From the NCBI GenBank assembly GCA_051382305.1, contig JBBCAV010000369.1:1-14038 (forward strand): 14,038 nt of DNA, written 5' to 3'. Of this stretch, positions 48 to 13,529 are shown one piece after another. The DNA comes from Bdellovibrionota bacterium FG-2 (GTDB lineage Bacteria > Bdellovibrionota > UBA1018). Made by a program: the position numbers and the translations under genes. The notes beneath the pieces are model-generated. The model made no database searches. It was not told where the DNA came from and saw only the letters and a list, made by a program, of their open reading frames with translations. Positions within the stretch are counted from its first letter, which is position 1; the number at the start of each line of letters is the position of its first letter.

Positions 48-851
48 TTATGTAAAATCAATGCCCCGCAGCTTGGTAGCACTTCTTTCTGAGTCAATAC
101 GCCCCGATTTTTTTGATTCTCCTTCTTCGCCCTCTTTGCCTTCTTTGATGGTTTGCCGCACAAGGTTTCGCACGAGCCGATTGCGGTTTGCGCCGCCCAT
201 CAATGCCTTTGCGTCCTCATAGAGTCCTGGGTCGTTGACCAACGCGCCGAGCGTTCCTGTCCCATTGTCAATTTTTTCAAGTATTGCATCGAGGTGACCT
301 ACGGACTTTTTGAGCCCACTAAAAAAGATTTTGCTCTGATTCTCCGATTCAAAGTCTTTAAGCAATCTCTCCATGCTTGTCGCCACCTTCTCCAACGAGA
401 TGATCAGCTGATCCCCCTTGCTGATGAATTGTGTCATGCTTGTTGAGGCCAGTGCAGGAATCTCTGAGTGTTCCGCAAGTAAGCTCTGATCGCTGGCCCC
501 AGGCGAAATGGTCACGTATTTATCGCCTAGAACTCCTTGCGTTGAAATTTCGGCCTTAGACTCTTTTCGAATCCACTGCGCAGCATCTTCTCGTACTGAC
601 AATTCAACGCGCACCTCTTGTTGGCCTTTTTCAAATTTCACTTCATCTACGGTCCCTGCTTGGACTCCGCCGACCACAACTGTGGCTCCCGGGATTAGGC
701 CTTCGACAGATTTGAAGTGAACCATGTAGCTACGCTTACTCTGGGCTAATTGCTGGACGCTTCCCAAAACCAAAACCGCAATCATCACCAGACCTAGCCC
801 AAGGGCGACAAAAATTCCGACTTTGATCTCAATATCCAGCTGTTTTGCCAT
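48..851 (-). CDS. mlaD: MCE/MlaD family protein of a lipid ABC transporter, with helical C-terminal extension
   Basis: N-terminal KVGIFV plus a TM anchor. MCE motifs F..VEGL.PGA.V...GV..G.V and A.IS.QGVLGDKYV.I.PG. Helical tail with G.GTLG.L.ND..LY. Lies downstream of mlaE/mlaF-like genes. Confidence 0.93.
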   Translation of the reverse strand: MAKQLDIEIKVGIFVALGLGLVMIAVLVLGSVQQLAQSKRSYMVHFKSVEGLIPGATVVVGGVQAGTVDEVKFEKGQQEVRVELSVREDAAQWIRKESKAEISTQGVLGDKYVTISPGASDQSLLAEHSEIPALASTSMTQFISKGDQLIISLEKVATSMERLLKDFESENQSKIFFSGLKKSVGHLDAILEKIDNGTGTLGALVNDPGLYEDAKALMGGANRNRLVRNLVRQTIKEGKEGEEGESKKSGRIDSERSATKLRGIDFT

Positions 852-896
852 TCCTCTTTATCAACATGCAAATGTTCGTCCGTTGAGTTCGCCGCT

Positions 897-1631
897 TCAG
901 GCAGCGCCCTTGATGAAGGACTGAACGATGGGGTCCTGCATAAGTTGAAGGTTCGCAGGTGTGTCAATGGCGCGAATCTTTCCGCCGTCAAGGAGCGCAA
1001 TGCGATCGGAAATTTCGAAAGCTGACGGAATATCGTGTGTCACAAAAATCCCAGTGATTCCTCTCTTTTTCAAGCTGCGGATATTATCTAAAAGTCGTTG
1101 CGTGTTCACAGGATCGAGCCCAGCCGTGGGCTCATCAAAGAGAATGATCTCCGGGTCCAGGATGATGGCGCGCGCAAGTCCCGCACGTTTTTGCATTCCT
1201 CCCGAAAGCTCAGCTGGCAGCAATAAGTTTGTCCCTTTCATGTCAATTTTTTCAAGGTTCTCGTTAACCTTACTTAGAATCTCTGTTTCGCTAAGTTTCG
1301 TGTGCTCGCGAAGCGGATAAGCCAGGTTCTCTTCGACGGTGAGAGAATCAAAGAGCGCGCCATTTTGGAAAACGTAGCCGATTCGGGTCCGCACTTTTAA
1401 AAGCGCGCGCTCACTCAAATGAGTGAGCGCGCGCTCTTCAAACAAGATTTCACCTTGATCGGGCTGTTCAAGCCCAATAATTGAGCGCAGGATAATACTT
1501 TTGCCGCTTCCTGAGCCTCCCAAAAGGCCCAAGACTTCACCTTTGAAGAGTTGAAAACTTACCCCTTGATGAACGATTTTTTCACCGAAGGCTTTGTGCA
1601 AATTTCGGACGTCGAGGGCAATTTTTCCCAT
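897..1631 (-). CDS. mlaF: ABC transporter ATP-binding protein, MlaF/Mkl family
   Basis: Walker A GGSGSGKS, Q-loop FQNGALFDSLTV.EN, signature LSGGMQKR, Walker B ILFDEPTAGLDP and H-loop VTHD. SD-like AGGTG overlaps the mlaE stop. Confidence 0.95.
   Translation of the reverse strand: MGKIALDVRNLHKAFGEKIVHQGVSFQLFKGEVLGLLGGSGSGKSIILRSIIGLEQPDQGEILFEERALTHLSERALLKVRTRIGYVFQNGALFDSLTVEENLAYPLREHTKLSETEILSKVNENLEKIDMKGTNLLLPAELSGGMQKRAGLARAIILDPEIILFDEPTAGLDPVNTQRLLDNIRSLKKRGITGIFVTHDIPSAFEISDRIALLDGGKIRAIDTPANLQLMQDPIVQSFIKGAA
1402..1435. repeat. Perfect 16-bp inverted repeat with 2-nt spacer inside the mlaF CDS
   Basis: AGCGCGCGCTCACTCA (1402-1417) - AA - TGAGTGAGCGCGCGCT (1420-1435). The arms are exact reverse complements. 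Confidence 0.9.
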
Positions 1632-1636
1632 AGCAC

Positions 1637-2455
1637 CTAATATTGTGGATAAACGGTAACAATAAAGAACTTGGTTAAAAAGAAATCACTAATCATGATA
1701 AATATGCTCGACGTCACCACGACCCACGTCGTGGTGGATCCTACGGCCTGCGTCCCTCCTTCAGTATTGAGCCCCTTCCAACAGGCGGTGATTGAAATAA
1801 AAAAGGCAAAAACGACAGTCTTTGCCATTCCTGTTAAGAAGTCATACATCCGTAAAGTCTCGGTCGATTTTGCGAAAAAGTATTCGACGTTGATTCCTAG
1901 TTCGGTCGTGCAGACGAGCATCGCGCCAAACAGTCCTATGTAGTCAGCAAAGAGCGTGAGAATGGGCAACGCGATGAGGCTTGCCAGTAGCCTCGGGATT
2001 ACAATTCGTTTGATAGGACTGGTGCCCAATGCCCGAATCGCATCAATTTGCTGGGACACTTTCATAGATGCAACTTCAGAAGCAATCCCCGAGCCGATGC
2101 GTCCAGCAACCAAGAGACTTGTAAAGACGGGTCCCATTTCTCGAATTATGGTGAGGCCTACAATACTGGGGACATAGAGTTTGCCACCGAATTTCGAAAG
2201 CCCATATCCAAACTGCAAAGCCATCACGGATCCCGTGGCAAGCCCGGTGACTAGAACGAGCATAAAGGATTCAACACCAATTGCGTAAATCTGCTGGAGC
2301 GTCAGTGGGATATAGAAGGGTGGCCGAAACAGCTCGATTGCAACCTGGAAACAAAGGACGCCAAAACCTCCGGCAAATCTAATCATCGACAGTGCGCTTT
2401 TTCCTATTCTGCGCAAAAAAGAGAGAGGAGTACTTATGAGAGGTTCTGCGACCAT
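1637..2455 (-). CDS. mlaE: ABC transporter permease, MlaE family
   Basis: Hallmark motifs REMGPVFTSLLVAGRIGSGIASEVASMKVSQQIDAIRALG..P...V.PR and GG...VG..TT..VV, with multiple TM segments. Confidence 0.96.
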   Translation of the reverse strand: MVAEPLISTPLSFLRRIGKSALSMIRFAGGFGVLCFQVAIELFRPPFYIPLTLQQIYAIGVESFMLVLVTGLATGSVMALQFGYGLSKFGGKLYVPSIVGLTIIREMGPVFTSLLVAGRIGSGIASEVASMKVSQQIDAIRALGTSPIKRIVIPRLLASLIALPILTLFADYIGLFGAMLVCTTELGINVEYFFAKSTETLRMYDFLTGMAKTVVFAFFISITACWKGLNTEGGTQAVGSTTTWVVVTSSIFIMISDFFLTKFFIVTVYPQY

Positions 2456-2467
2456 GGTGGCGCGAGC

Positions 2468-3031
2468 TTACTCCTTGATTTTGAGCGAAGCAACGAAATG
2501 AGCAAATGCTGCTTCGCCCTTGGCAAAATATTCGGGGCGCGCGATGAGCATTAGGTCATAGATGCAGGCGCGTCGCTGCAACACGACAGCTCTTAGCATC
2601 ATTTCTTTACCGCCAAGTTTTCCGCGAATAGTTGTTTGGAGCGCAGGGCCCTTGAGGATCGTGATCTCTTCTTCGTCCCGAAGCGTTATATGGGAAACGC
2701 CGAAAAATAGCGGATTAGAAAAACTTTTTAAGTCACCCATGGTATTGCTGGAATGCTGCTCCCGACACGAAGAATTCACTGATATGATCGAAGCGTCGGT
2801 CTTGGACTGATATGCGGCATCAGAAATTCCGATAGTGTTCGCCTCTGCCGTGTTGTCACTCTGAATTTGCACCCAGTCAGAATTTTCGTGAGCGAGATCC
2901 TGGATTTCGTAGTTTTTGGATTTTTCTTCAATGGGTTTGATGTTTCCTAGTAGTAGGCTGCAGGCAGATTGCGACAACATAAAAAGAATCAGGAGCGTTC
3001 GTTGAAATCCAGATTGGGTTAAAGCTATCAT
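2468..3031 (-). CDS. Putative lipoprotein (PsbP/DcrB/DUF1795-like fold suspected), first gene of the mla operon
   Basis: Hydrophobic signal with lipobox-like SQSA-C and two further Cys (VNSSC, ACIYDL). The C-terminal pattern IYDLMLIA.PEYF......F..FV.SLKI resembles PsbP-like proteins. Ends 12 bp before mlaE. Start is ATG 3031 or TTG 3034. Confidence 0.75.
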   Translation of the reverse strand: MIALTQSGFQRTLLILFMLSQSACSLLLGNIKPIEEKSKNYEIQDLAHENSDWVQIQSDNTAEANTIGISDAAYQSKTDASIISVNSSCREQHSSNTMGDLKSFSNPLFFGVSHITLRDEEEITILKGPALQTTIRGKLGGKEMMLRAVVLQRRACIYDLMLIARPEYFAKGEAAFAHFVASLKIKE

Positions 3032-3084
3032 CAAGAATCAACATATAATAGAACGTGCTGCGGCGGCAATCCCGTTGATTCTTG
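3032..3084. promoter_or_regulatory. Divergent promoter region with an 11-bp inverted repeat flanking a TATAAT
   Basis: CAAGAATCAAC (3032-3042) and GTTGATTCTTG (3074-3084) are exact reverse complements with a 31-nt spacer. A perfect TATAAT lies at 3044-3049 on the + strand. The element sits between two divergent operons. Confidence 0.55.
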
Positions 3085-3118: not shown

Positions 3119-3487
3119 ATGCTAAATCTAAAAGATCTTTTTTTATTGTCAGGGGTTTTCGCGCTGGTGGTACCCGGACTGGGATGTGGCTATCGGCCTA
3201 GAAATACTGAGCTGAGTCCGGGGGGCGCTGCGCAACCCACTTATTCTTGGATTCAACAAAATATTATTTTGCCGAAATGCTCTCAGTGTCATGGCGGGAG
3301 TGGCGGTGAGGATAGTCTTTCAACTCACGAGGCGCTTGCGGATAGTGTGCGGGTCGGCAATCCTGAAAAAAGTGAGTTTTATAAAGAGGTCAGCAGTGGA
3401 GCAATGCCTCCGCTTTCGCCCATGCTAAGTGATGATGAAATTTTGGCTATCTACCTTTGGATTAAGAATGGAGCTTTAAATGATTAA
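3119..3487 (+). CDS. Monoheme c-type cytochrome lipoprotein (planctomycete-type cytochrome c domain-like)
   Basis: Signal with lipobox GLG-C. Heme motif CSQCH at 3278-3292. Pattern I...I....C..CH...V..G.PE.S.....V..G.MPP....L...EI..I..WI..GA, with distal Met in MPP. Start is ATG 3119, or alternatively GTG 3110. Confidence 0.85.
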   Translation: MLNLKDLFLLSGVFALVVPGLGCGYRPRNTELSPGGAAQPTYSWIQQNIILPKCSQCHGGSGGEDSLSTHEALADSVRVGNPEKSEFYKEVSSGAMPPLSPMLSDDEILAIYLWIKNGALND

Positions 3488-4079
3488 TTCTATTTTCGCG
3501 GTTCTCGCTATGGGGTTTTCCTCAAGTATTTTAGCCGCCCCCGCTGCCGCTCCGCTTGAAGTGATCATCCAGAAGGCAAGCGGCAGCGTTGAGTTTCTCG
3601 CGATTGGCCGCCCTAGCGCACTTCGCATTCGAGGAAAAGGCGCGGGGCCTGAGGGAGTGGTCAAAGTCAGTCGCGCAAGTGGGAAGCCCGTGGCACAGGG
3701 TTTGTTGAGATTTGAACTCGCTTTGTTGGACACTGGGATTGATTCGCGGACGGAGCACATGAAGGAAAAGTATTTGGAAGTTGCAAAGTTTCCACAAGCA
3801 GTACTTAGCTTTTCTGATTTGGCGCTTCCCGATTCGAGTCCGGTAAAGGGTAAGGTTGCTTTTAAGGGGGAGTTAACTTTTCATGGCGTAACTCACGCTA
3901 TAGCGGGGAGCTCTGAAATTATGGAAATAGAGAAAAGTTTTGTTGTTGAAGCAGAATTCCCGGTAAAACTGAGTGAGTTTAAAGTTGAGATTCCTAATTT
4001 TGCGGGGATCACGGTGGCCGAAGATGTTACCGTCACTGTTCACTTCGATGCTCCGTTTGCGGCTTCGGGGGTGCGCTGA
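3480..4079 (+). CDS. YceI family periplasmic lipid/polyisoprenoid-binding protein
   Basis: Sec signal peptide. YceI motifs S.VEF, LDTGI..R..HM...YL.V.KFP.A.L and G.LT.HGVT, plus C-terminal ..EF.V..P......VAE.V.V. GGAG SD at 3470-3473 and an 8-bp overlap with the upstream gene. Confidence 0.9.
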   Translation: MINSIFAVLAMGFSSSILAAPAAAPLEVIIQKASGSVEFLAIGRPSALRIRGKGAGPEGVVKVSRASGKPVAQGLLRFELALLDTGIDSRTEHMKEKYLEVAKFPQAVLSFSDLALPDSSPVKGKVAFKGELTFHGVTHAIAGSSEIMEIEKSFVVEAEFPVKLSEFKVEIPNFAGITVAEDVTVTVHFDAPFAASGVR

Positions 4080-5155
4080 TGGTTTTCCGATTTGTTTTTA
4101 TTTTCGTTCTCATCTCTTTTCTCAGTTTCTCGGCACACGCCTTTACCGAAATGGTTCGTCACGGTTACGTCAATTGTATCTCCTGTCATGTGAGCCCGAG
4201 CGGGGGTGGGGCCATGACTCCCTACGGACGGCAGATCTCTTCGACTTTGATGAGTAGCGGCTCTGCAGGAAAAGAAGCTGAGTTCCTCCATTTTTTGCCT
4301 TTGCCGAGCTGGTTGCGTGTGGGCGGTGATGTTCGCGGAGTGGGCATTTATCGAGATACCCCGCAGGTGCGAAATGGTCGCTATCTCTTGATGCAAGCCG
4401 ATCTAGAGGTGGCAGGTGTCTACGGGCCATGGACCGCCGATGTGAGTGCCGGCGCCTATAATGGTGTTGCGCAATCGCGAAAACACTATGTGAACTATAG
4501 ACCCACCGATGAACTCTCGTTTCGGGCGGGGAGGTTTCAGCAAGCATTTGGTCTCATGGCCCCCGATCATCGCTCCTCGATTCAACGTCATTTGGGGTGG
4601 GATGAAGGGAGCGAGAGTTATAACGTTGAGGCGGCGTGGCTAGGAGAGCAGTTTTCAACATTCTTGACTGGAAATTTTGGTCGTCCCGATGATGCGGCCT
4701 TAGATGCCGAAAAGGGAATTTCTGTGCGTCCTGCGATGGCGTTTTGGGATCGCTTTCAAGTGGGGTTGAGTTATTATGCTGGGACCAAGACGGGTCTCAA
4801 TCGGCAAATTGGGGGGCCGTTTGCGGTCTTGGGCTTTACTCCGCGTCTTGCGCTGATGTCAGAATGGGTGCTTCAGAAAACATCGTCGGTCGATACGCGC
4901 TCTCAAAATGGTTTCTCTACGTTGAATCAACTTAACTACGAGCCGCTAAAGGGCCTAGTTTTTTATGTGGAGCAAGAATCAGCGCGGCGGGATTTTTTGG
5001 ATTCGCGAACTCAATTTTCCGCTTACGGTTTGGGCACCCAGTTTTTTCCTCGTCCGCATTTTGAATTTAATTTGTTATGGCAACGGCAAAAGCTCCCTGC
5101 GTTTCCTCTTGATTGGAGCGAGTACGTGACGGTACAGTCGCATTATTATTTTTAG
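4079..5155 (+). CDS. Outer-membrane beta-barrel with N-terminal c-type heme-binding site (cytochrome-porin fusion)
   Basis: Signal peptide ending AHA. CISCH at 4175-4189, 12 residues into the predicted mature protein. Amphipathic beta-strands, the porin-like FRAGRF..AFGL motif and a C-terminal aromatic beta-signal (VQSHYYF). TGATG coupling to yceI. Confidence 0.82.
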   Translation: MVFRFVFIFVLISFLSFSAHAFTEMVRHGYVNCISCHVSPSGGGAMTPYGRQISSTLMSSGSAGKEAEFLHFLPLPSWLRVGGDVRGVGIYRDTPQVRNGRYLLMQADLEVAGVYGPWTADVSAGAYNGVAQSRKHYVNYRPTDELSFRAGRFQQAFGLMAPDHRSSIQRHLGWDEGSESYNVEAAWLGEQFSTFLTGNFGRPDDAALDAEKGISVRPAMAFWDRFQVGLSYYAGTKTGLNRQIGGPFAVLGFTPRLALMSEWVLQKTSSVDTRSQNGFSTLNQLNYEPLKGLVFYVEQESARRDFLDSRTQFSAYGLGTQFFPRPHFEFNLLWQRQKLPAFPLDWSEYVTVQSHYYF

Positions 5156-5163
5156 GAGCACTT

Positions 5164-5604
5164 ATGAACCTTACCCTTACCTGGAACGATAAGATGAGTT
5201 TCGAAGCCGACATTCGCGGTAAAGTAGTCCCGATGGATGTTAAGCCCGAATCCGGGGGCGATGATTCTGGACCTACCCCCAAAGAGCTTGTGCTCGCGGG
5301 CCTTGCGGGTTGCACCGGTATGGACGTAGCCTATGTGCTAAATAAAATGCGCGCAGAATTTAGTGGGATCTCCATCGACGCAGATGCTCAAACCACAAAA
5401 GGTGAGCCTTCCGTGTTTGATACCGTTCATCTCATTTACAACGTGACCTCACCAAGCTTGCCTGAAGATAAACTGATGCGGGCGGTGGAACTTTCCCAAA
5501 CGAAGTATTGCGGCGTGAGTGCGATGATCGCAAAATCTGCGCGAATTAATTATGAAGTAAGGCTCAATGGGAAAACGATTGGAACGGGCGCCGCGAAGTT
5601 CTAG
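5164..5604 (+). CDS. OsmC/YhfA family protein
   Basis: Motifs GG.D.GPTPKEL.LAGLAGCTGMDV and AVELS..KYC.V carry the two conserved Cys. AGGAG SD at 5154-5158 overlaps the upstream TAG and supports ATG 5164. Confidence 0.93.
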   Translation: MNLTLTWNDKMSFEADIRGKVVPMDVKPESGGDDSGPTPKELVLAGLAGCTGMDVAYVLNKMRAEFSGISIDADAQTTKGEPSVFDTVHLIYNVTSPSLPEDKLMRAVELSQTKYCGVSAMIAKSARINYEVRLNGKTIGTGAAKF

Positions 5605-5614
5605 ACCGCCAGCC

Positions 5615-6619
5615 TTACCACGTAAACATCATGGATGCTGCCGTAAAGAACCCTGAAGTTAAGTCAAAAGTCTGTGGATCGGCTGAAGCCATCCCTTCAG
5701 AACCCCACACGGATCGTCCGACTGTCCAGTCAAAGCTTGCGCGGCCCACATGAAATCCTGCTCCCAGTCGACCCGTCGTAGAATCGAGTTGGCTCTGATC
5801 TCCCACGCGATCGAAGATGCGATAGGATAGCCCCGCGCGCAGTGTGAGCCACACTGCAGGATCTGCCTCAACTGAAAAATCAAGGGGCACGACAGAACGG
5901 CCTTGCGCGGTAGAGCGAAAGAAGCCTAGTGCCGTGTTTGTTTTGATTCCTTCCGCAAGTTTTGCGTTTCGGGCAATTCCGGACCCAAAGGAGCGGGTGA
6001 GGGTTCCGTTAGTTTCGGTAGCGCGATAAGCAATATAGGGAACCCATTCGCCCCATTTGTAGCGCGTTCCGAGAGACCATCCCTTATAGGTGTTGTCTGC
6101 CACGATCCGTTCAGTTCCCTTGAGTTTGTAGGAAAAGAAGGGTTCAAATTCCGCGAACTGAATGCCCCCGCGAAGGGTCATATCTGAATCGGATTTGCCT
6201 TCCGTAGAGAATCCAGCTGTCGCCAGAGAAACTCCCCATTTAACGCCCATGTCAGAGCCTAAAAGGATTTCAATAGGGCGCATGTCCGGACCCGTGGCGT
6301 AGGGTTCAGCAATCGTTTGCCTGCGATTCATGTAGACGCCAAAACTAAAATTGAAAAAAGAGTTGATGAAGCCGCCTTGGGCCGTGAGGCCTGGGAAATT
6401 GGATTTCTCAATGATCCCAAAATTCTTGAAATCGTTAACATAGGAGGGATTGTAGAAAATGTTGTACTCGGTGTCATAGTACAAGCTCCCCCCGTTGAGG
6501 ATCAGGCCAGCGTCTCCCGTTCCAAGGGCTAATTCTCGGGCGCGAGAAGCGAAGACGGGACGCTCAAAACTCAATATAAATAGACCGGCGATTAGGGCAG
6601 AGGTGATGAATCGGTTCAT
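5615..6619 (-). CDS. Outer-membrane beta-barrel protein, Bdellovibrio major-OMP (PopA)-like or FadL/PorV-like N-terminus
   Basis: Signal peptide ending VFA. Mature N-terminus SRARELALG...GSLYYD...NIFYNPS.VN, alternating beta-strand pattern, C-terminal W. AGGAG SD at 6630-6634. Confidence 0.8.
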   Translation of the reverse strand: MNRFITSALIAGLFILSFERPVFASRARELALGTGDAGLILNGGSLYYDTEYNIFYNPSYVNDFKNFGIIEKSNFPGLTAQGGFINSFFNFSFGVYMNRRQTIAEPYATGPDMRPIEILLGSDMGVKWGVSLATAGFSTEGKSDSDMTLRGGIQFAEFEPFFSYKLKGTERIVADNTYKGWSLGTRYKWGEWVPYIAYRATETNGTLTRSFGSGIARNAKLAEGIKTNTALGFFRSTAQGRSVVPLDFSVEADPAVWLTLRAGLSYRIFDRVGDQSQLDSTTGRLGAGFHVGRASFDWTVGRSVWGSEGMASADPQTFDLTSGFFTAASMMFTW

Positions 6620-6650
6620 TGGGTGAAGTCTCCTGTGTCTTGTATCCTAT

Positions 6651-6684
6651 ATCTTAAGCTTGAACGAAATAAGCCGCCTGTCAA
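6651..6684 (-). promoter_or_regulatory. Possible sigma70 promoter for the outer-membrane barrel gene
   Basis: A perfect TTGACA (6684-6679) overlaps the ROK stop codon. Candidate -10 boxes are CAAGCT (16-nt spacer) or TAAGAT (6656-6651, 22-nt spacer, too long). Confidence 0.35.
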
Positions 6685-7625
6685 CCCTTTCGGTGCAGGG
6701 CTACGTAGGCCCCTCCAATGAGGCCGGCTTGGTTATTTAAACTTGAAACGACGAGTTGGGGCATAAAGTCGATGCCTTCGCGTCGGCGTTGAAGCAAAGA
6801 TTGAAGATTAATCTGAGTTTTTTCGAGGAATAGATCTGCGGTTTCGGCGAAACTCCCGGTAAAAACTACGATTTCGGGAGCATAGAGGACGACGTAACTT
6901 GCGATCGCCACCGCCATGGCTTGTGCGTACTCTTCAAAAGCTTGAAGGGCAGCGCGATCGCCACGTCTTGCCTGGTCGGCGATTTGCGGAGCCGTGATTT
7001 TGGAGTTACGGTTTTTCTTCTGATAGCGAAGGGCAAAATTTCTTCCCGAAAGATAGGCCTCGGCGCAACCAAAATTGCCGCATCCACACGGGGCACTGAG
7101 GTCTTGATAGTTGAGAATCACGTGTCCCGCCTCGGTATGCATGTTTCTGCCTGCGCGTACGAGCGTTCCATTAGCGATCACGCCCGTTCCAAGTCCTGTT
7201 CCGAGCGTCAAAATCATGGCGTTATCGAAACCACGCGCTGCACCTTTCCAGTGTTCAGCCAAAATGGCGGCTGCAGCGTCATTTTCAAGTCGAACTCGGA
7301 TCCCGAGTTTCTTTTCTAGAAGCTGGGCGAGTGGGACCTCTCCCCACGTCCCTTTCGTGGGGGTTCCGAAGTTGGTGGGATCCAAAAGTACCCCGCGAAC
7401 AGGATCCAACGGTCCGGCAGAGGCGATTCCAGCCACTTTTATCGCGGGAAAACGGCTCATGAAGCCTTTTCCCAGGTTCGCAAGCTGTTGGATGACCGCA
7501 GTTTTGCCTCGGGCCGTTCCGACGGGGAGGCGAACTTCTTCCAAAACCTTGCCGGCGCCGTTGACCGCACCCACGGCGACTTTCGTTCCTCCTAAATCAT
7601 AAGCCAAAACTACTTTCTGAGTCAT
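6681..7625 (-). CDS. ROK family sugar kinase (glucokinase-like)
   Basis: DLGGTK phosphate motif, ENDA.AA..AE...GA, TLGTGLG.G and the Zn motif E.GH...CGCGNFGCAEAY. No N-terminal HTH. C-terminal AGLIGGA. Start is ATG 7625, or alternatively TTG 7628. Confidence 0.93.
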   Translation of the reverse strand: MTQKVVLAYDLGGTKVAVGAVNGAGKVLEEVRLPVGTARGKTAVIQQLANLGKGFMSRFPAIKVAGIASAGPLDPVRGVLLDPTNFGTPTKGTWGEVPLAQLLEKKLGIRVRLENDAAAAILAEHWKGAARGFDNAMILTLGTGLGTGVIANGTLVRAGRNMHTEAGHVILNYQDLSAPCGCGNFGCAEAYLSGRNFALRYQKKNRNSKITAPQIADQARRGDRAALQAFEEYAQAMAVAIASYVVLYAPEIVVFTGSFAETADLFLEKTQINLQSLLQRRREGIDFMPQLVVSSLNNQAGLIGGAYVALHRKG

Positions 7626-7648
7626 CAATCCCCATGTACCATAGGAAT

Positions 7649-10153
7649 ATGGAAAGCAGACAGAATTCCTCTAAGGCAAATGGAAAATCACTTGGGGTTG
7701 AGGGCGCGAGTATTTTGGTTTTTGCGCTCGGCGTTTTTACGTTATGCGCGATGCTGACGTTTCACCCTTCGGACCCTTCTCTTTTTACGAGTACCCACGT
7801 GGCGGTGCAAAATGCGTGTGGTCGCGTCGGGGCGTATCTCGCCGCTGCGCTTCTGCAATGTTTTGGGATGGGATCGTTTCTACTCCCCGCAGCACTTTTT
7901 TTCATTGCCTCTTCGATTCATCGGCGCGAGGGGGGCTTAAGGGTTTTTGGAACATTGGGCGGAATGTCTGTTGCCGTCATGGGCCTCACCGTTTTTCTTG
8001 GCCTTCAATGGAAGTATTGGCCACTCGGTGGCAGTCTTCTATTGACCGGTGGAATTGCGGGAACTTACGTAGCCGAAGGGCTACTTAAACAGTTTAATCC
8101 TCTAGGATCATCAATTGTTTCCCTTCTTGCTTTTTGCTTGGCGTTTGCCTTTGCGACGCCCTTTAGTGTGGCGCGGGCAGGAGCGCGCGTGTTGAAGGCA
8201 ATGGGCATTCTCGGGTTTGCGCTGTCTAAAGGGGCTTTTCGGATTTTGCGTCTTGCAGGTGCTTACGCAATATATTTTATAGGAATTCTCTTCATGCGCA
8301 CCGCGCACGCCTTAGGTGATGGGATTCAGAAGTTGTTTGAAGCGGCCCTGCGCAAAGCTCGTGAGAGGCGTGAGACAGTTTTAACCACTAAAGTTACGCA
8401 GGTTGCGATTCCCTCTGAAGGGGTCATTGAACTGGAAAGTGCTCCTTTACCCCCGCCCGCACTGATGCCCCCCTTGACTACCTCGGAGGCGCCTAATGTT
8501 TTTCCGGAACTTGAAAAATCTCAATCCAGGTCTGTTGGCTCTAGCTCCTCCAAAGAACCGGAGATTTTGGCGCACGATCACACCAAGCGTTCCGCGGATG
8601 TGGTCCCCAAAAGTGCGATCAAGAGCAGACGAGGCGCATGGAAGCTGCCTACGATCGAGTTTTTGTCCAAACCTCCCAAAACCGAGTCCCTTATTGATAA
8701 AGATCGTCTGCTCAAAAATTCAAAAATTTTAGAGCAAAAGTTTGCTGATTTTGGAATAGGCGGTGAGGTTGTTGCGGTACGGCCGGGGCCCGTGATTACG
8801 CTTTATGAGTTTCGCCCAGGGCCGGGCGTCAAAGTTTCTCGAATAGCGGCGTTGGCGGATGATCTCTCCATGGCGCTATCGGCGCAAAGTGTTCGTATTC
8901 TTGCACCGCTGCCGGGTAAGTCAGTAGTGGGGATAGAGATCCCAAGTGATCATCGTGAGACGGTATTTATGCGCGAATTTTTGCAGCAGACTGATTTTCA
9001 AGGTAGTCGTCATCAGATTCCGCTCGTTATGGGAAAAGACATTGGTGGGCAGCCCTTCTTTTCTGATCTCGGGCGCATGCCGCACCTTTTATGTGCCGGT
9101 CAAACGGGTTCCGGAAAATCTGTCTTCATGAACGGTTTGATCTGCTCGCTCTTCTATCGCTTTACGCCGGATGAGCTTCGGATGATTTTAGTGGATCCAA
9201 AATTTATTGAGTTTCGTTCATACCAAGATGTTCCTCATCTTCTGCTCCCCGTGGTGGATGACGCAAAAGAGGCGAGTACGGCACTCAAATGGGCCGTGCG
9301 CGAAATGGATCGGCGTTATCGTATTTTGGCTAAAATCGGGGCAAAAAATCTCGCCGGATTCAATCAGAAAGTTCAGGAACTTGGGGCAGATGCGGTTCAT
9401 GATCTCTTGCTTTCCGAAGAAGAAGACGCGGAGATGCTTCCGATTAAAATGAATTCGTCGGATTGGATGGAGGCCTTTGAGCCTGACGAACAGGGTGTTC
9501 CTCAGGTCGGAAAACTTCCCTATATCGTAATTATTATCGACGAGCTTGCGGATTTGATGATGATCGCAAGAAAAGAAGTTGAAATTTCCATTGCGCGGAT
9601 TGCCCAAAAAGCCCGTGCGGCGGGGATTCATTTGGTGGTCGCGACTCAGCGTCCTTCGACGGATGTGATCACGGGATTGATTAAGGCCAATCTACCGTCC
9701 CGTGTTTCGTTTCAGCTTGCAAGCTATGTGGATTCAAAAACAATTTTGGATCGAGCGGGAGCGGAGAGGCTTTTGGGACAAGGGGATATGCTCTTTATTC
9801 CTCCGGGCGTTTCTCAATCTGTGCGTCTTCATGGGGCCTATTTGACTGATGATGAGATCAACAAAGTGACGGGGTTCCTGAAGTCGCAGGGTAAGCCTAA
9901 TTATCGGAACGAGATTCTGCTTTCGGATGACGAGGACGAAGAATCAGGTGGAGACGCCGAGAATCAAGATGACGAACTTTTTGGTGAAGCCGTCGAGCTG
10001 GTTAAGAATTCGGGCCACGCTTCTGCCAGCTATCTTCAGCGTCATTTTAAGGTGGGCTACAATCGCGCCGCGCGTCTCATCGAAAAAATGGAGAATCGAG
10101 GAATCGTGGGACCCGCTGATGGTGCGCGCCCGCGGGAAGTATTGATGAGGTAG
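7649..10153 (+). CDS. ftsK: DNA translocase FtsK
   Basis: N-terminal TM domain (DPS...N..G.VGA) and a Pro-rich linker. Motor motifs GPVIT.YE..P..GVKVS.I, PHLL.AG.TGSGKS, IIDELADLMM, AQKARAAGIHL..ATQRPS.DVITGLIKAN. Gamma domain LQR...GYNRAARLIE.ME..G.V. Start is ATG 7649 or 7634. Confidence 0.97.
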   Translation: MESRQNSSKANGKSLGVEGASILVFALGVFTLCAMLTFHPSDPSLFTSTHVAVQNACGRVGAYLAAALLQCFGMGSFLLPAALFFIASSIHRREGGLRVFGTLGGMSVAVMGLTVFLGLQWKYWPLGGSLLLTGGIAGTYVAEGLLKQFNPLGSSIVSLLAFCLAFAFATPFSVARAGARVLKAMGILGFALSKGAFRILRLAGAYAIYFIGILFMRTAHALGDGIQKLFEAALRKARERRETVLTTKVTQVAIPSEGVIELESAPLPPPALMPPLTTSEAPNVFPELEKSQSRSVGSSSSKEPEILAHDHTKRSADVVPKSAIKSRRGAWKLPTIEFLSKPPKTESLIDKDRLLKNSKILEQKFADFGIGGEVVAVRPGPVITLYEFRPGPGVKVSRIAALADDLSMALSAQSVRILAPLPGKSVVGIEIPSDHRETVFMREFLQQTDFQGSRHQIPLVMGKDIGGQPFFSDLGRMPHLLCAGQTGSGKSVFMNGLICSLFYRFTPDELRMILVDPKFIEFRSYQDVPHLLLPVVDDAKEASTALKWAVREMDRRYRILAKIGAKNLAGFNQKVQELGADAVHDLLLSEEEDAEMLPIKMNSSDWMEAFEPDEQGVPQVGKLPYIVIIIDELADLMMIARKEVEISIARIAQKARAAGIHLVVATQRPSTDVITGLIKANLPSRVSFQLASYVDSKTILDRAGAERLLGQGDMLFIPPGVSQSVRLHGAYLTDDEINKVTGFLKSQGKPNYRNEILLSDDEDEESGGDAENQDDELFGEAVELVKNSGHASASYLQRHFKVGYNRAARLIEKMENRGIVGPADGARPREVLMR

Positions 10154-10161
10154 GGCGAGAG

Positions 10162-10434
10162 ATGAGAGTATTTCTTTTGGGCCTGATTTTCTTAGCGTCA
10201 AGTGTGAGCAGTGCAGAGGAGCCTATTCAAGGAGAGCCTCAGGGCGTAAGTGCGGAGTCGGCCCCAGCCCCAGAAAGCCCTACGGAGAAGCCTACGAAAA
10301 ATAAAAAGAAAGGCACGAAAACCGGTGACAAAGAAACCGAAGGTACCCAAGCGCGTAACCGCTTCGAAGCGGATACGGTCATCCGAAGCAAGTACCAGCT
10401 TAACGGAGAGCAACTCGAAGTGGATCCGGATTGA
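10162..10434 (+). CDS. Small secreted hypothetical protein (90 aa)
   Basis: Clear Sec signal peptide (MRVFLLGLIFLASSVSSA), a low-complexity E/P/K/T linker and a more structured-looking C-terminus (RFEADTVIRSKYQLNGEQLEVDPD). Starts 8 bp after the ftsK stop, with purine-rich AGGG/GAG upstream. Confidence 0.7.
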   Translation: MRVFLLGLIFLASSVSSAEEPIQGEPQGVSAESAPAPESPTEKPTKNKKKGTKTGDKETEGTQARNRFEADTVIRSKYQLNGEQLEVDPD

Positions 10435-11761
10435 TCGCCCTTTTCCGCTACCGACTTACGTTAAACGCGCTTTAGAAAAACTGGATCGTGCAGGGCATTT
10501 GGCTTACCTGGTGGGCGGAAGTGTGCGCGACTTTTTGCTGGGTCGAGAGCCAAAGGATCATGACATTGCTACAAGCGCTTCGCCCGATGAAATTCAGGCG
10601 TTGTTCTTAGATGCCGTCACTGTGGGTAAGGCGTTTGGGGTGTTGAAGGTTCCGGTTCGCGAACAGAATGTTCCTCCTTTGGAAATTGCAAGTTTTCGGG
10701 AAGATCTCGATTATGAAGATCACCGGCACCCCAAGAAAATAAAACTTTCTGGGCCTGCAGAAGATGCCGCTCGCAGGGATTTTTCAGTAAATGCGTTGTT
10801 CTTTGACCCGAAGTCTTCACGTATCTTGGATACGGTTGGAGGTTATGAGGATCTCAAAATTGGGGTCATCCGTGCTATTGGGAGGCCCGATGAGCGTTTT
10901 CGTGAGGACGCCTTGCGACTGCTACGAGCTATTCGCCTGAGTGTGGCCTTGGGTTTTGGCATTGAAAAAACCACGAGTGATGCATTGAAACAGCGCGCCC
11001 GGTTGATCACCCGAATTAGCTTCGAGCGCGTTCGTGACGAATTGACTCATCTGTTTGTAGGCCCGCATCCGGATCGGGGTTTGCTGGCCTTGCATGAGTT
11101 CGGCTTATTGAACTTTGTGCTGCCCGAGCTTGAGAATTTGAGAAAACTTAAAGCCGAAGGTGATCCCTGGAAACATGCCCTCAGGGTCGTTGCACGCGTT
11201 GCGGAGCAGAATCAGAAGCGCAGTGAAGCCTTGGCTTGGGCTGCGGTGTTGCACGATATCGGTAAGCCCATCGTTTTTAGAAAAACAGGTGGGAGAAATT
11301 TTCAGAGTCATGAACTGGAGAGTGCAGACGCAGTCCGGGAAGTGGGGCTTCGTCTCAAGTTCTCCTCAGAGCAGGTCGATCGTACGGCCGCCATCGTTGG
11401 GGATCATTTGAAATTTCGTGGAGCTTTTCAGATGCGAGAGGCGACGTTACAGCGATTTATCCGCGAGCCGCACTTCGAGGAGTTACTGGCTTTTCATCGG
11501 GCGGATGCCACGGTGTCTGATGGCAATCTGGCCACTTATGAGTTTTGTCATTCGCGGTGGCTTGAGATGAAGGCCAAGGGGAAAAACGCCGATCTCAAGT
11601 TCATGAAGTTGGTGGACGGAAAAGACCTGATCCAAATGGGATTTAGTCCGGGGCCGGAGTTTTCTGGAATTTTGAGAAAAATTGACGACCTGACGCTTGA
11701 GGGAAAGCTCACAAGCAAAGATGAGGCGCTGGAGTATGTGCTAAAGAATTTTGTGGAGTAG
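10430..11761 (+). CDS. cca: CCA tRNA nucleotidyltransferase (class II) with HD domain; start codon uncertain
   Basis: Motifs LVGG.VRD.LLG..P.D.DIAT, ED..RRDF.VNA, the templating RF.ED.LR.LRA.R, IS.ER..EL, and HD motif LHDIGK. In-frame start candidates are GTG 10250, GTG 10325, ATT 10430 and TTG 10499. Confidence 0.88.
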   Translation: MDRPFPLPTYVKRALEKLDRAGHLAYLVGGSVRDFLLGREPKDHDIATSASPDEIQALFLDAVTVGKAFGVLKVPVREQNVPPLEIASFREDLDYEDHRHPKKIKLSGPAEDAARRDFSVNALFFDPKSSRILDTVGGYEDLKIGVIRAIGRPDERFREDALRLLRAIRLSVALGFGIEKTTSDALKQRARLITRISFERVRDELTHLFVGPHPDRGLLALHEFGLLNFVLPELENLRKLKAEGDPWKHALRVVARVAEQNQKRSEALAWAAVLHDIGKPIVFRKTGGRNFQSHELESADAVREVGLRLKFSSEQVDRTAAIVGDHLKFRGAFQMREATLQRFIREPHFEELLAFHRADATVSDGNLATYEFCHSRWLEMKAKGKNADLKFMKLVDGKDLIQMGFSPGPEFSGILRKIDDLTLEGKLTSKDEALEYVLKNFVE

Positions 11762-12046
11762 GCCGAGCGCTTCGGTTTTCATACCCTTACATAGAACTTC
11801 TTTATTTCTCCCGGTGTCTCCCCTTAAAATAATGATCTGAGAACTGGGGATTTTGAGCGTTTTTTTTAAAAACCTCACGACTTCGTCGTTGGCTTCCCCC
11901 TCTACGGGGGGCGCGGCGATTCGAATCTTAAGTCGAGGCGGTTCCCCATGCAATCCAACGACTTCAGTGCGCGAGGCGCGGGGTTGTATATAAAGGAGCA
12001 GTACAATGCCTTCGGGCGTTTCCCGATACCAATTAGGTGTTTGCAT
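11741..12046 (-). CDS. DUF167 / YggU (UPF0235) family protein
   Basis: Motifs IQPRASR.EV.G, LKIRIAAPPVEGEAN..V..FL.K.L and I.RG.T.RNK.V. ATG 12046 overlaps the NFACT gene end by 14 bp. The 3' end overlaps cca by 21 bp. Confidence 0.92.
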   Translation of the reverse strand: MQTPNWYRETPEGIVLLLYIQPRASRTEVVGLHGEPPRLKIRIAAPPVEGEANDEVVRFLKKTLKIPSSQIIILRGDTGRNKEVLCKGMKTEALGLLHKIL

Positions 12047-13529
12047 ATTGCGATAATAAGCGTTGAAGCCTGATGGGGTCGGGCTCAATGACGAGCGTAC
12101 GATTTTGAGTGTAGCTTACCTCATCTGAACCCTTGATCCGTTTGACATGTTTTCGGAAGGTGTAATCAACTTCGGTTTTTCCGGCGTCTTTCCCGCCACT
12201 GTAGTAGACGCAAAGGTGCGCGGCATCTAAGAGGGTTTCAAGCGGGACAGATTTGCCAGAGCGGCAGGGAATGAGCACATGGCTGCCTGGTTTGCCGCGC
12301 AAATGCAGCCAAATGTCGTTACCCTTTGCTAATCTTACGGTGAGTTCCAAGTTTTCGTCTTTGTTTCGCCCCACCCGAATAAGCCAGCTATCGAGGGAGT
12401 TGAAGGCGCGCCCTGGGTGAGTGTCTTCTTCTGGCTTGGTTTTGGTGTCCCCTTGGGAAGTGCCCAGCCCAAGTTCCGATTCGAGGGATTCTAGCGTGCT
12501 CCATTCGCCGGGGGGCAGCTCGAGTTCCGCGAGTTTTTTAAGGCGTTTGAGTTTCTGAGAAAAGTCCTCAATGCGCATTTGTCCTTGCGCGATTCGCGTT
12601 TTCGTTCGTTTTGAGTTTGCAAAGAATCGCGCTGCTTGAGATTTCGCATCAAGTTTGGGATCGCAGGGAATTTCGACGAGCGTCTCCGTTCTGAAATCAT
12701 GCACGCGGCGAATGTCGGGATACTTGCTCTTTGCGCTGGCCCGCTCAAGAAGGGGGGGATCATGCAATACCTGGGTCAGGAGGGCGCCCATTCTATGCCA
12801 ATCGGGCTCGGTCTGAGCTTCTTTGAGAGCCGTTTCTGCTTGCCTAAAACGGGTTTCGCAGTCTTTGATTTGATGCTTGAGGATTTGCGTCGCACGTTGA
12901 ATGCGAAGCTTCAAAACTTCCGCGAGATGCTCTTGTTCTACAAATTTGAAAAACAGTTCAGGGGTGGAAGTCTGTGGACGTAGCGGCAGGTCTTGGGGGG
13001 CAGGTTTACCTTTTGGAATTTCAAAGCTGCCTCGGAGTGATTCGTCTATAGTTCGCGTGCGGGCCATGACATTAGTGAAGTGATCCGCGCGCAGGTTTTC
13101 GGGACGATCCAAGACTAGAAGAGCTTCGGGAGAGGCGGGAATCAGATTAAGAAACAACCCCAGTTCCGTCTGCGGCTGATCGCAACTGAAGGTAAAGATC
13201 ACCATTCGCTCTTGGTCCAGGGCTCTTAAGTCCAAGAGCTTGGAACCTGCCAAGTGCTTGGAGAGGGCTAGATCAAAAGCCGAACGTGACGCGTCTCGGG
13301 CAGGCTTGAAGGTCTTTAGTGGTGCCAGAGCGAAAAAGGCGGTTTGTGGACGCACACTGATGAAGAGTTCACACGAACTTAAGCGCAAAACCCATTCGGA
13401 TTTTATGAAGCCTTGAGGGTGCCTGGGTCGTGCGGGGACAAAGACGCGGTCCACGAATTGGCCGCGGACTTTTGGGAGCGTTGTTAGCGCGAGATGGGCG
13501 ATCTCTTTCCAGTTGAGTGAAGGTTGCAT
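12033..13529 (-). CDS. NFACT family protein (RqcH/Rqc2/FbpA-like ribosome quality-control factor)
   Basis: NFACT-R motifs VGRN...N..LT...A..NDIWLH....PGSHV.I, AA.L..YYS and VDYT..K.V.R. Coiled coils, an I.CDP......A.RFF...KR middle region and a divergent NFACT-N (F...L.KHL.G......ER.V.F.F). Confidence 0.9.
   Translation of the reverse strand: MQPSLNWKEIAHLALTTLPKVRGQFVDRVFVPARPRHPQGFIKSEWVLRLSSCELFISVRPQTAFFALAPLKTFKPARDASRSAFDLALSKHLAGSKLLDLRALDQERMVIFTFSCDQPQTELGLFLNLIPASPEALLVLDRPENLRADHFTNVMARTRTIDESLRGSFEIPKGKPAPQDLPLRPQTSTPELFFKFVEQEHLAEVLKLRIQRATQILKHQIKDCETRFRQAETALKEAQTEPDWHRMGALLTQVLHDPPLLERASAKSKYPDIRRVHDFRTETLVEIPCDPKLDAKSQAARFFANSKRTKTRIAQGQMRIEDFSQKLKRLKKLAELELPPGEWSTLESLESELGLGTSQGDTKTKPEEDTHPGRAFNSLDSWLIRVGRNKDENLELTVRLAKGNDIWLHLRGKPGSHVLIPCRSGKSVPLETLLDAAHLCVYYSGGKDAGKTEVDYTFRKHVKRIKGSDEVSYTQNRTLVIEPDPIRLQRLLSQYANT

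What the first reader, a model, noticed from the sequence alone, without database searches (positions are those of the whole stretch)
3119..5604. Four-gene coupled operon (cytochrome c lipoprotein + YceI + heme-bearing OM barrel + OsmC): candidate undescribed trans-envelope redox system
Seen in sequence: four same-strand genes are all translationally coupled (8-bp overlap at 3480-3487, TGATG at 4077-4081, and TAG overlapping the AGGAG SD at 5153-5158). Two carry a single CxxCH, and three are predicted to be exported. Established: YceI proteins bind polyisoprenoids/quinones and are normally paired with a cytochrome b561 (YceJ); OsmC-fold proteins are two-Cys thiol redox proteins; porin-cytochrome conduits move electrons across the outer membrane. 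Inference: this is a minimal module linking an OM heme to a membrane-anchored periplasmic cytochrome and a soluble lipid/quinone carrier. It could serve extracellular electron transfer, or sensing and detoxification of oxidised lipids or metals. I know no characterised system with this composition.
Basis: partly seen in the sequence, partly recalled or inferred. Interest (0 to 1): 0.85.

Follow-up and report, generated by a model that had tools for sequence, protein, structure and literature searches.

The report
Cyc2-like heme porin three-gene cassette
Three of the four genes form an unstudied unit common in predatory-type bacteria, pairing an outer-membrane pore that carries its own heme (like the iron-oxidising protein Cyc2) with a small anchored cytochrome and a lipid/quinone carrier, while the fourth gene is only a local neighbour.

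Summary
The four genes and their overlaps are real, but the conserved unit is three genes. Among 80 relatives of the barrel, YceI lies beside it in 71, the cytochrome in 64, and OsmC within 5 kb in 2, adjacent in neither. Cytochrome-YceI fusions exist. The cassette-type YceI occurs in 18 of 22 barrel-positive and 0 of 20 barrel-negative genomes. The barrel has the Cyc2 design: signal peptide, one invariant CxxCH, and a porin whose best structural match is OprP. It is distantly homologous to Cyc2 in the heme domain but fails the defining Cyc2 motif (0 of 117), so it works like Cyc2 without being filed as Cyc2. No inner-membrane partner recurs, so 'trans-envelope' is unsupported. Best reading: an outer-membrane one-electron conduit that oxidises a dissolved metal (Cu(I) or Fe(II)) for envelope protection; copper genes recur nearby in 8-10 of 80 loci. 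Substrate and direction are inferred. I found no paper on it. This scan already noted the same cassette in several other genomes. New variant of a known kind, testable in Bdellovibrio.

The parts
3119..3487 (+). Monoheme class I cytochrome c lipoprotein (lipobox Cys23; C54-C57-H58; likely distal Met96 in an MP motif; PSCyt1/FoxE-like domain). Relatives carry 1-4 such hemes, and two are fused to YceI.
   Evidence: Lipobox by eye.
3480..4079 (+). Exported YceI-fold lipid/quinone-binding protein of a cassette-specific subfamily; the only YceI found in this genome.
   Evidence: Pfam E 2.6e-15; profile hits E. coli YceI 1Y0G at E 1.2e-11; model pLDDT 90 with best Foldseek match 1WUB; own-genome search; reciprocal presence test.
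4079..5155 (+). Cyc2-like fused monoheme cytochrome-porin: signal peptide, N-terminal C33-C36-H37, OprP/OprO-type barrel; R86, M105, H164 and H355 kept in both subfamilies.
5164..5604 (+). Two-cysteine (C50, C116) OsmC-fold protein without a signal peptide; probably co-transcribed here but not part of the conserved module.
   Evidence: (1VLA E 3.9e-25).
3002..3031 (+). Possible sigma-70-type promoter (TTGAAA-18-TATCAT) in the divergent gap upstream of ORF1; a weak candidate.
   Evidence: 10 of 12 matches; 6 such sites found in the region against 2.6 +/- 1.7 in shuffles.

Best explanation
A three-protein outer-membrane electron conduit that works like Cyc2 but serves envelope protection and not energy gain. 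SHOWN: a porin with one invariant N-terminal heme motif, kept with a cytochrome lipoprotein (CxxCH plus conserved Met) and a dedicated YceI. INFERRED: the heme domain sits at the periplasmic end of the pore, as proposed for Cyc2. A reduced metal ion entering the pore (Cu(I) or Fe(II), the Fenton-active forms) binds near conserved residues (M105, H164 and H355 are candidates for heme or metal ligands) and gives one electron to the barrel heme. The lipoprotein cytochrome takes it. The YceI, holding an isoprenoid quinone, serves as redox buffer or antioxidant beside it; otherwise the electron leaves through shared periplasmic carriers to the respiratory chain. OsmC is a local passenger.
For: Architecture: model pLDDT 92; best structural match OprP 2O4V (Foldseek E 4.4e-11; VIA Z 24.6, rmsd 2.6, 281 aligned), the templates also named for Cyc2 in 10.1101/228056 (passages). 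Heme-domain homology to 57 Cyc2-motif proteins: hhalign 86%, E 5.1e-6, 68 columns, with A-x-P-x-x-x-R in the same register before CxxCH. Linkage: YceI 71 of 80, cytochrome 64 of 80, both 58 of 80, same order as here 43 of 80; fusions L150 and L152; cassette-type YceI in 18 of 22 barrel-positive and 0 of 20 barrel-negative genomes. The cytochrome profile's top solved match is FoxE 5MAB (E 1.8e-16), an Fe(II)-oxidation cytochrome according to PMC10654088 (passages). CsoR, multicopper oxidase or P-type ATPase genes lie within about 5 kb in 10 of 80 loci (8 on a strict reading), against 27 of 2450 gene-centred windows in this genome, and on several branches of the barrel tree. This genome has a second domain of the same cytochrome type in a Cus-like efflux island and a cytochrome c assembly gene.
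Against: No activity, heme loading or expression is shown. 70 of 80 loci, and this window, have no copper gene nearby. The copper clusters were picked after seeing the data, and the background comes from one genome. The P-ATPase profile also catches non-copper pumps, and the L003 'oxidase' is a cupredoxin-cytochrome fusion. Other clades have other neighbours: a cardiolipin-synthase-like PLD in 7 loci and a periplasmic binding protein in 4. The barrel-only comparison with Cyc2 is weak (8.8%, E 0.004; reversed control 0.3%). The FoxE score adds two domains; the best single domain is E 1.3e-7, only slightly above other cytochromes, and the domain type is widespread. A His/Met cytochrome is usually too oxidising to reduce a quinone (general knowledge), which fits poorly with YceI as the electron sink.
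Confidence: 0.4

Rival explanations
1. Outward conduit with a soluble quinol shuttle. YceI picks up quinol from the inner membrane, crosses the periplasm and reduces the outer-membrane-anchored cytochrome, which reduces the barrel heme. The heme then reduces Cu(II), Fe(III) or another outside acceptor, for uptake or to dump electrons.
For: No recurring inner-membrane partner in 80 loci, so the link to the quinone pool must come from elsewhere. YceI is the tightest partner (directly upstream in 61 of 80) and is fused to the cytochrome twice. YceI proteins hold ubiquinone-8 or related isoprenoids (PMC9113575 passages). Quinol to His/Met heme is downhill (general knowledge). Four loci place a periplasmic metal/B12-type binding protein directly upstream.
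Against: Characterised Cyc2 proteins oxidise metal. Copper-resistance islands would not be expected to make more Cu(I). PMC9113575 calls the evidence for YceI as a respiratory quinone carrier inconclusive. The ligand of this YceI is unknown.
Confidence: 0.22
2. A BcnA/LcoA-type antioxidant system. YceI-bound quinol quenches lipid peroxyl radicals in the outer membrane, and the two c-type hemes replace cytochrome b561 in recycling it. Metals are not substrates.
For: YceI with cytochrome b561 protects against membrane lipid peroxidation and is sometimes fused to it (PMC9113575 passages). Here YceI is fused to a c-type cytochrome in two genomes. Lipid-related or peroxide-related neighbours occur (PLD in 7 loci; AhpF in 1; OsmC in this window).
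Against: It does not explain why a heme is built into a pore. No source of reducing power is encoded. Barrel-negative genomes keep ordinary YceI genes (15 of 20), so the general antioxidant job seems covered separately.
Confidence: 0.17
3. The barrel is a heme-plugged or redox-gated channel (or sensor) for a small or hydrophobic molecule that YceI collects. The cytochrome sets the redox state of the plug and there is no net electron flux.
For: The fold is that of ordinary solute porins, and many charged barrel positions are conserved. In the second subfamily a further unannotated exported protein, barrel-like by eye, follows the heme barrel.
Against: Heme-domain homology to redox-active Cyc2 and partner cytochromes with up to four hemes fit electron flow better than gating.
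Confidence: 0.12
4. A true energy-conserving iron oxidase, so that these bacteria gain energy from Fe(II) like Cyc2-bearing iron oxidisers.
For: Both cytochromes resemble iron-oxidation proteins (Cyc2; FoxE).
Against: The Cyc2 motif is absent in 117 of 117. No terminal oxidase or rusticyanin cluster recurs among the neighbour clusters annotated. The family occurs in 194 of 301 genomes of a phylum known as predators and heterotrophs (lifestyle recalled). 10.1101/228056 section 13 warns against assigning iron oxidation to distant homologs.
Confidence: 0.06
5. The first reader's four-part system, with OsmC as the cytoplasmic thiol-redox end.
For: OsmC follows the barrel by 8 nt with a good ribosome site and no room for a terminator. 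The two other loci with OsmC nearby (L002, L003) belong to the same small clade as this barrel.
Against: 2 of 80 and 0 of 40 loci. In L002, the closest relative, a 449-codon opposite-strand gene separates the barrel from osmC, and DNA similarity breaks exactly at this junction (window 3155-5153 and 5164-8680). OsmC is in a different compartment, with no membrane link encoded.
Confidence: 0.03

Closest known systems
Cyc2 fused monoheme cytochrome-porin (Acidithiobacillus ferrooxidans Cyc2, Mariprofundus Cyc2PV-1, Ghiorsea Cyc2TAG1_1, Leptospirillum Cyt572)
   Same: Signal peptide, one N-terminal CxxCH, OprP/OprO-like porin, A-x-P-x-x-x-R register before the heme motif and L-T-x-[YF]-G-R after it, and a small partner cytochrome gene nearby (cyc1 in the rus operon).
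   Different: Motif is A-F-P-E-M-V-R-H-G-Y instead of AXPXFAR[Q/K][T/Y]; a GGG insert replaces PXL; shorter (median 347 against 428 residues from the motif on; 358 aa here, under FeGenie's 365 limit). Partners are YceI and a lipoprotein cytochrome; none of the 120 Cyc2-motif loci held a YceI hit (many are short). Hosts are not known iron oxidisers.
FoxE of Rhodobacter ferrooxidans (foxEYZ; PDB 5MAB)
   Same: Top solved match to the partner cytochrome profile, aligned across the whole domain in both FoxE hemes; Met distal ligands; relatives here also have two-domain forms.
   Different: FoxE is a diheme protein working with FoxY and FoxZ. Here the protein is a lipoprotein, often monoheme, and no FoxY/FoxZ-type family appeared among the recurring neighbours annotated. 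The similarity may only reflect the broad PSCyt1-type domain.
YceI/BcnA with cytochrome b561 (LcoA/YceJ)
   Same: A YceI-fold protein genetically coupled, and sometimes fused, to a heme protein.
   Different: The heme partners are a c-type lipoprotein and an outer-membrane heme porin, not an inner-membrane b561. The YceI is a separate subfamily.
Porin-cytochrome conduits MtrCAB, MtoAB, PioAB
   Same: Outer-membrane barrel plus periplasm-side cytochrome.
   Different: Those use about 26-strand barrels that hold a separate decaheme wire. Here a small porin carries one heme of its own; MtrB scored only Z 11.9.

Membership tests
Cyc2 | Signal peptide and a single N-terminal CXXCH | tested here: met
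   One CxxCH in 119 of 120 listed homologs; signal peptide judged by eye.
Cyc2 | Fused 16-stranded porin most like OprP/OprO | tested here: met
   Model pLDDT 92; top hits are OprP 2O4V and other general porins. The strand number is taken from these matches; DSSP lists 17 strands of 3 or more residues, one of them a 3-residue piece.
Cyc2 | AXPXFAR[Q/K][T/Y] motif upstream of CXXCH (called unique to Cyc2 in 10.1101/228056) | tested here: not met
   0 of 117 have PXFAR[QK][TY]; only A, P and R keep their places.
Cyc2 | PXL motif four residues after CXXCH | tested here: not met
   The consensus after CH is VSPxGGGVLTxYGR; the spacing to L-T is 8 residues in 103 of 117, against 5-7 in Cyc2-motif proteins.
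Cyc2 | Detectable homology to Cyc2 sequences | tested here: inconclusive
   Heme domain yes (86%, E 5.1e-6), barrel weak (8.8%, E 0.004). The comparison set was fished with one motif variant and is not verified Cyc2. In the tree the 116 family rows stand apart from 12 such proteins on a long branch, which does not exclude nesting among long-branched Cluster 3 sequences.
Cyc2 | Score above FeGenie Cyc2 HMM cut-offs; length at least 365 aa | not testable with these tools
   HMMs not held. This protein is 358 aa and many relatives are 355-390 aa.
Cyc2 | Fe(II) oxidase activity | not testable with these tools
   Needs biochemistry.
YceI | Pfam PF04264 above cut-off and lipocalin-like barrel fold | tested here: met
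   57.5 bits against 23.7; Foldseek 1WUB E 6.6e-12.
YceI | Bound isoprenoid or quinone | not testable with these tools
   Known for relatives only.
YceI-cytochrome b561 (BcnA/LcoA) system | Adjacent cytochrome b561 membrane protein | tested here: not met
   None in this window; 5 of 80 same-strand runs hold a protein with two or more predicted helices, of which two are P-type ATPases and three were unassigned in NCBIfam or not scanned.
FoxE | Diheme cytochrome in a foxEYZ operon | tested here: not met
   Monoheme lipoprotein here; domain similarity only; no foxY or foxZ in the window.
LIC11213 family lipoprotein (NF047812) | NCBIfam cut-off of 100 bits | tested here: not met
   43.3 bits.
OsmC peroxiredoxin (TIGR03562) | NCBIfam cut-off of 85.8 bits | tested here: not met
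   28.4 bits; closer to PRK10738 (62 of 138 bits) and to 1VLA/1ML8. Pfam OsmC superfamily met.

The most novel reading that the evidence does not exclude
YceI is a soluble, quinol-carrying shuttle that wires the inner-membrane quinone pool directly to an outer-membrane heme porin through a lipid-anchored cytochrome. This would be a trans-envelope electron path with no inner-membrane cytochrome and no multiheme wire, widespread in predatory Bdellovibrionota, and it would give the YceI family a true respiratory or metal-redox role.
Probability: 0.2. Interest if true: 0.85.

Novelty: new variant of a known kind. Interest (0 to 1): 0.55.

Why it matters
Cyc2 is used as a marker gene for microbial iron oxidation. 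This is a large sister family (2384 clusters at E <= 0.001; 194 of 301 genomes of the phylum) that escapes the published motif and length rules. It sits with different partners in bacteria not known to oxidise iron. If it handles copper, or runs outward, the cytochrome-porin design is more versatile than assumed. It would also offer a direct test of whether YceI-bound quinone is a real electron carrier. Named, culturable Bdellovibrio species carry a member annotated only as hypothetical protein or porin, so the question can be tested genetically.

Tried and rejected
Complex prediction of barrel + YceI + 2 hemes with the cytochrome as partner gave no verdict (score 0.01, mark 0.32, controls not run). 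The job had three chains and ligands, unlike the tool's calibration, and I do not use it either way; no heme-heme distance was obtained. Sequence searches of the barrel against PDB found nothing significant, and the plasmid collection gave no match. A search for longer, fused YceI forms found none among 7183 candidates (weak evidence, and the 388-aa fusion L150 was found by another route). The Leptospira lead (LIC11213 family hit) gave one paper with a table row only, and the Leptospira neighbourhood was not examined. The two heme domains are not detectably related beyond CxxCH (16.6%). The recurring unknown neighbours (clusters c3, c4, c6, c8, c19, c31) had no Pfam or NCBIfam hit, and c4 had no useful PDB hit. 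The divergent MlaD-type transporter genes upstream are not shared by L002, so I rejected them as part of the module. No structural coordinates were available to me, so M105, H164 and H355 could not be placed relative to the heme.
Full report
Observation. The third junction is a stop codon overlapping a ribosome site, with the OsmC ATG 8 nt further on. Pfam gives YceI and OsmC above cut-off, cytochrome c-type hits just under cut-off for ORF1, and a weak Porin_O_P hit for ORF3. Signal peptides were judged by eye. The closest named relatives are Bdellovibrionota (best barrel hit L002, 81% identical, 'Oligoflexia bacterium'), and the downstream gene resembles the PopA porin family below cut-off.

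The barrel. A homolog search found 421 proteins and listed 120. 119 of these carry exactly one CxxCH; the exception is the window's own protein called from an internal start. Among 144 further cluster representatives (from the best 150 of 2384 hits at E <= 0.001), 130 had CxxCH in the first 90 residues, and none of 340 residues or more lacked it in the first 130. The model is confident (pLDDT 92) and matches OprP best (Foldseek E 4.4e-11; VIA Z 24.6, rmsd 2.6, 281 aligned). A profile search hit 194 of 301 genomes of the phylum, G000 included, at E <= 1e-5 (a sample of related genomes). A second, divergent subfamily exists (19 rows). It shares CxxCH, R86, M105, H164 and H355 with the first, and named Bdellovibrio species carry it as 'hypothetical protein' or 'porin'.

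Relation to Cyc2. Passages of 10.1101/228056 define Cyc2 as signal peptide, one CXXCH and a 16-stranded porin like OprP/OprO (4RJW, 2O4V), with AXPXFAR[Q/K][T/Y] upstream and PXL downstream. 119 gave a motif-bearing ORF, and 57 complete ones were aligned. Against 117 family members (3 of 120 dropped for truncated N-termini), hhalign gave 86%, E 5.1e-6 over 68 N-terminal columns; barrel against barrel gave 8.8%, E 0.004, and the reversed control 0.3%. A, P and R keep the Cyc2 register, but 0 of 117 have the strict motif. The comparison set is motif-selected and not verified Cyc2. In a quick tree of 128 rows (12 of the 57 included), the family stands apart on a long branch. It therefore works like Cyc2, and probably shares ancestry in the heme domain, but fails the membership motif. 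The supplement and figshare alignment of that paper were not seen and bear on whether the family lies inside Cluster 3.

What is conserved around it. In the best 80 of 154 confirmed genome loci, YceI lay within 1.5 kb in 71, a CxxCH cytochrome of this type within 2 kb in 64, both in 58 and either in 77. YceI was directly upstream in 61, and the window's order was found in 43. OsmC lay within 5 kb in 2; 14 of the 80 have short flanks. In 40 further loci that I chose (20 low-scoring, 20 higher-scoring and mostly on long contigs), no OsmC was detected, and two single ORFs fuse the cytochrome to YceI (L150, L152). The reciprocal test: a YceI profile built from cassette members scored above 70 bits in 18 of 22 barrel-positive genomes and in 0 of 20 barrel-negative ones (best 46 bits), although 15 of those 20 hold ordinary YceI genes. 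The positive side is partly circular and kin are not independent; the negative side is not circular. For OsmC, 12 of 41 genomes had a match, and none of the 11 outside G000 had a cassette gene within 1.5 kb. In L002 an opposite-strand gene of 449 codons lies between barrel and osmC, and DNA similarity to the window breaks at that junction. OsmC is probably co-transcribed here, but it is a passenger.

The partners. The cytochrome has invariant CxxCH and W114 and a near-invariant M96-P97, and occurs with one to four hemes. Its profile's top solved match is FoxE (5MAB, E 1.8e-16 summed over two domains; best single domain E 1.3e-7, next protein E 6.4e-7). PMC10654088 describes FoxE as the diheme cytochrome that takes electrons from Fe(II) (passages). 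The domain type is widespread, so this is a lead only. The YceI has the canonical fold. Passages of PMC9113575 state that YceI structures hold octaprenyl compounds or ubiquinone-8, that YceI with cytochrome b561 limits lipid peroxidation, and that a respiratory role was inconclusive. A crude hydropathy scan found a protein with two or more helices in only 5 of 80 same-strand runs, with no recurring redox partner. The cassette thus has no dedicated inner-membrane end.

Clue to substrate. Recurring neighbour clusters include a metal-sensitive repressor (CsoR-like; name recalled), a heavy-metal P-type ATPase, a multicopper oxidase, a cupredoxin-ankyrin protein and an efflux porin. Profiles built from them hit 10 of 80 loci, or 8 after dropping L003 and L078, whose pumps lack the CPC motif in the stretch held; they also hit 5 of the 40 further loci, one of which repeats a map already counted. 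The background is 27 of 2450 gene-centred windows in this genome. These loci fall on several branches. Against this: 70 of 80 loci and this window lack such genes, the choice was post hoc, the background is one genome, and other clades carry a PLD or a periplasmic binding protein instead. This genome also has a related cytochrome domain in a Cus-like efflux island.

Mechanism. I commit, at 0.4, to an outer-membrane one-electron conduit that oxidises Cu(I) or Fe(II) in the pore and passes the electron to the anchored cytochrome, with YceI-bound quinone as buffer or antioxidant, for envelope protection. Only the anatomy, conservation and linkage are shown; heme position, contact, substrate and direction are inferred. 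The main rival (0.22) reverses the flow, with YceI as a quinol shuttle. It fits the missing inner-membrane partner and the usual potential of His/Met hemes, and measured Cyc2 potentials span -130 to +560 mV (PMC13692758 passages), so direction cannot be read from the fold. Together the two conduit readings and true iron oxidation hold about 0.7.

Prior knowledge. Nine library searches gave no paper describing this family or cassette, as judged from listings; 'Bdellovibrio' with 'YceI' gave none. The library lacks most subscription journals. I read passages of PMC5348505, 10.1101/228056 (plus section 13), PMC13692758, PMC10654088, PMC13741234 and PMC9113575, and no supplements. Earlier notes of this scan reached the same Cyc2-like reading in other genomes. 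I had stated that reading, including copper or iron, before opening them, and they are not independent support. Their reports of related cassettes in other phyla were not tested here.

Verdict. This is a real, conserved, uncharacterised three-gene variant of the Cyc2 design; the OsmC part and the 'no precedent' claim fall. New variant of a known kind, interest 0.55.

Noticed in passing
window 5615-6619 (-): PopA-family porin-like gene (NCBIfam E 3.8e-20, 72.6 of 150 bits), convergent with osmC; the osmC-popA adjacency is also seen in L277.
   Followed up: partly
window 48-3034 (-): MlaD gene (Pfam) with ABC ATPase and permease genes that look like MlaF and MlaE (by eye), led by an unannotated 188-aa probable lipoprotein, divergent from the cassette.
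   Followed up: partly
L116-L131: Second barrel subfamily: the heme barrel is followed by an unannotated 210-305-aa exported protein ending in an aromatic or hydrophobic residue (small-barrel-like by eye), often facing a convergent cytochrome + YceI pair; in several loci further large one- or two-heme proteins lie upstream.
   Followed up: partly
L018, L029, L034, L035, L036, L065, L066, L071, L134, L144: An unannotated histidine-rich exported protein of about 305 aa (cluster c4), usually with other unknown genes (c3, c6, c8), recurs near the cassette, often with copper genes; a candidate new metal-binding family with no Pfam, NCBIfam or PDB hit.
   Followed up: partly
L273 7084-17919 (G000:C133): Cus-like RND efflux island with a P-type ATPase, small cysteine-rich lipoproteins, a second cytochrome of the cassette type and a divergent Haem_bd gene, without barrel or YceI.
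   Followed up: partly
L139-L141, L074: Variant cassette: PBP-family binding protein, an 860-aa four-heme protein, YceI, diheme cytochrome, barrel, and in L139 a Porin_5 gene.
   Followed up: no
L028 (barrel match at 5001-6066): Barrel and YceI appear split into shorter ORFs, possibly long-read frameshifts.
   Followed up: no
G000, whole genome: Sixteen six-frame ORFs with three or more CxxCH motifs, up to 24 in C123 and 19 in C293; some may be spurious frames.
   Followed up: no
window 6681-13529: ROK-family kinase and NFACT protein (Pfam), FtsK-like and tRNA nucleotidyltransferase-like genes (by eye); housekeeping context.
   Followed up: no
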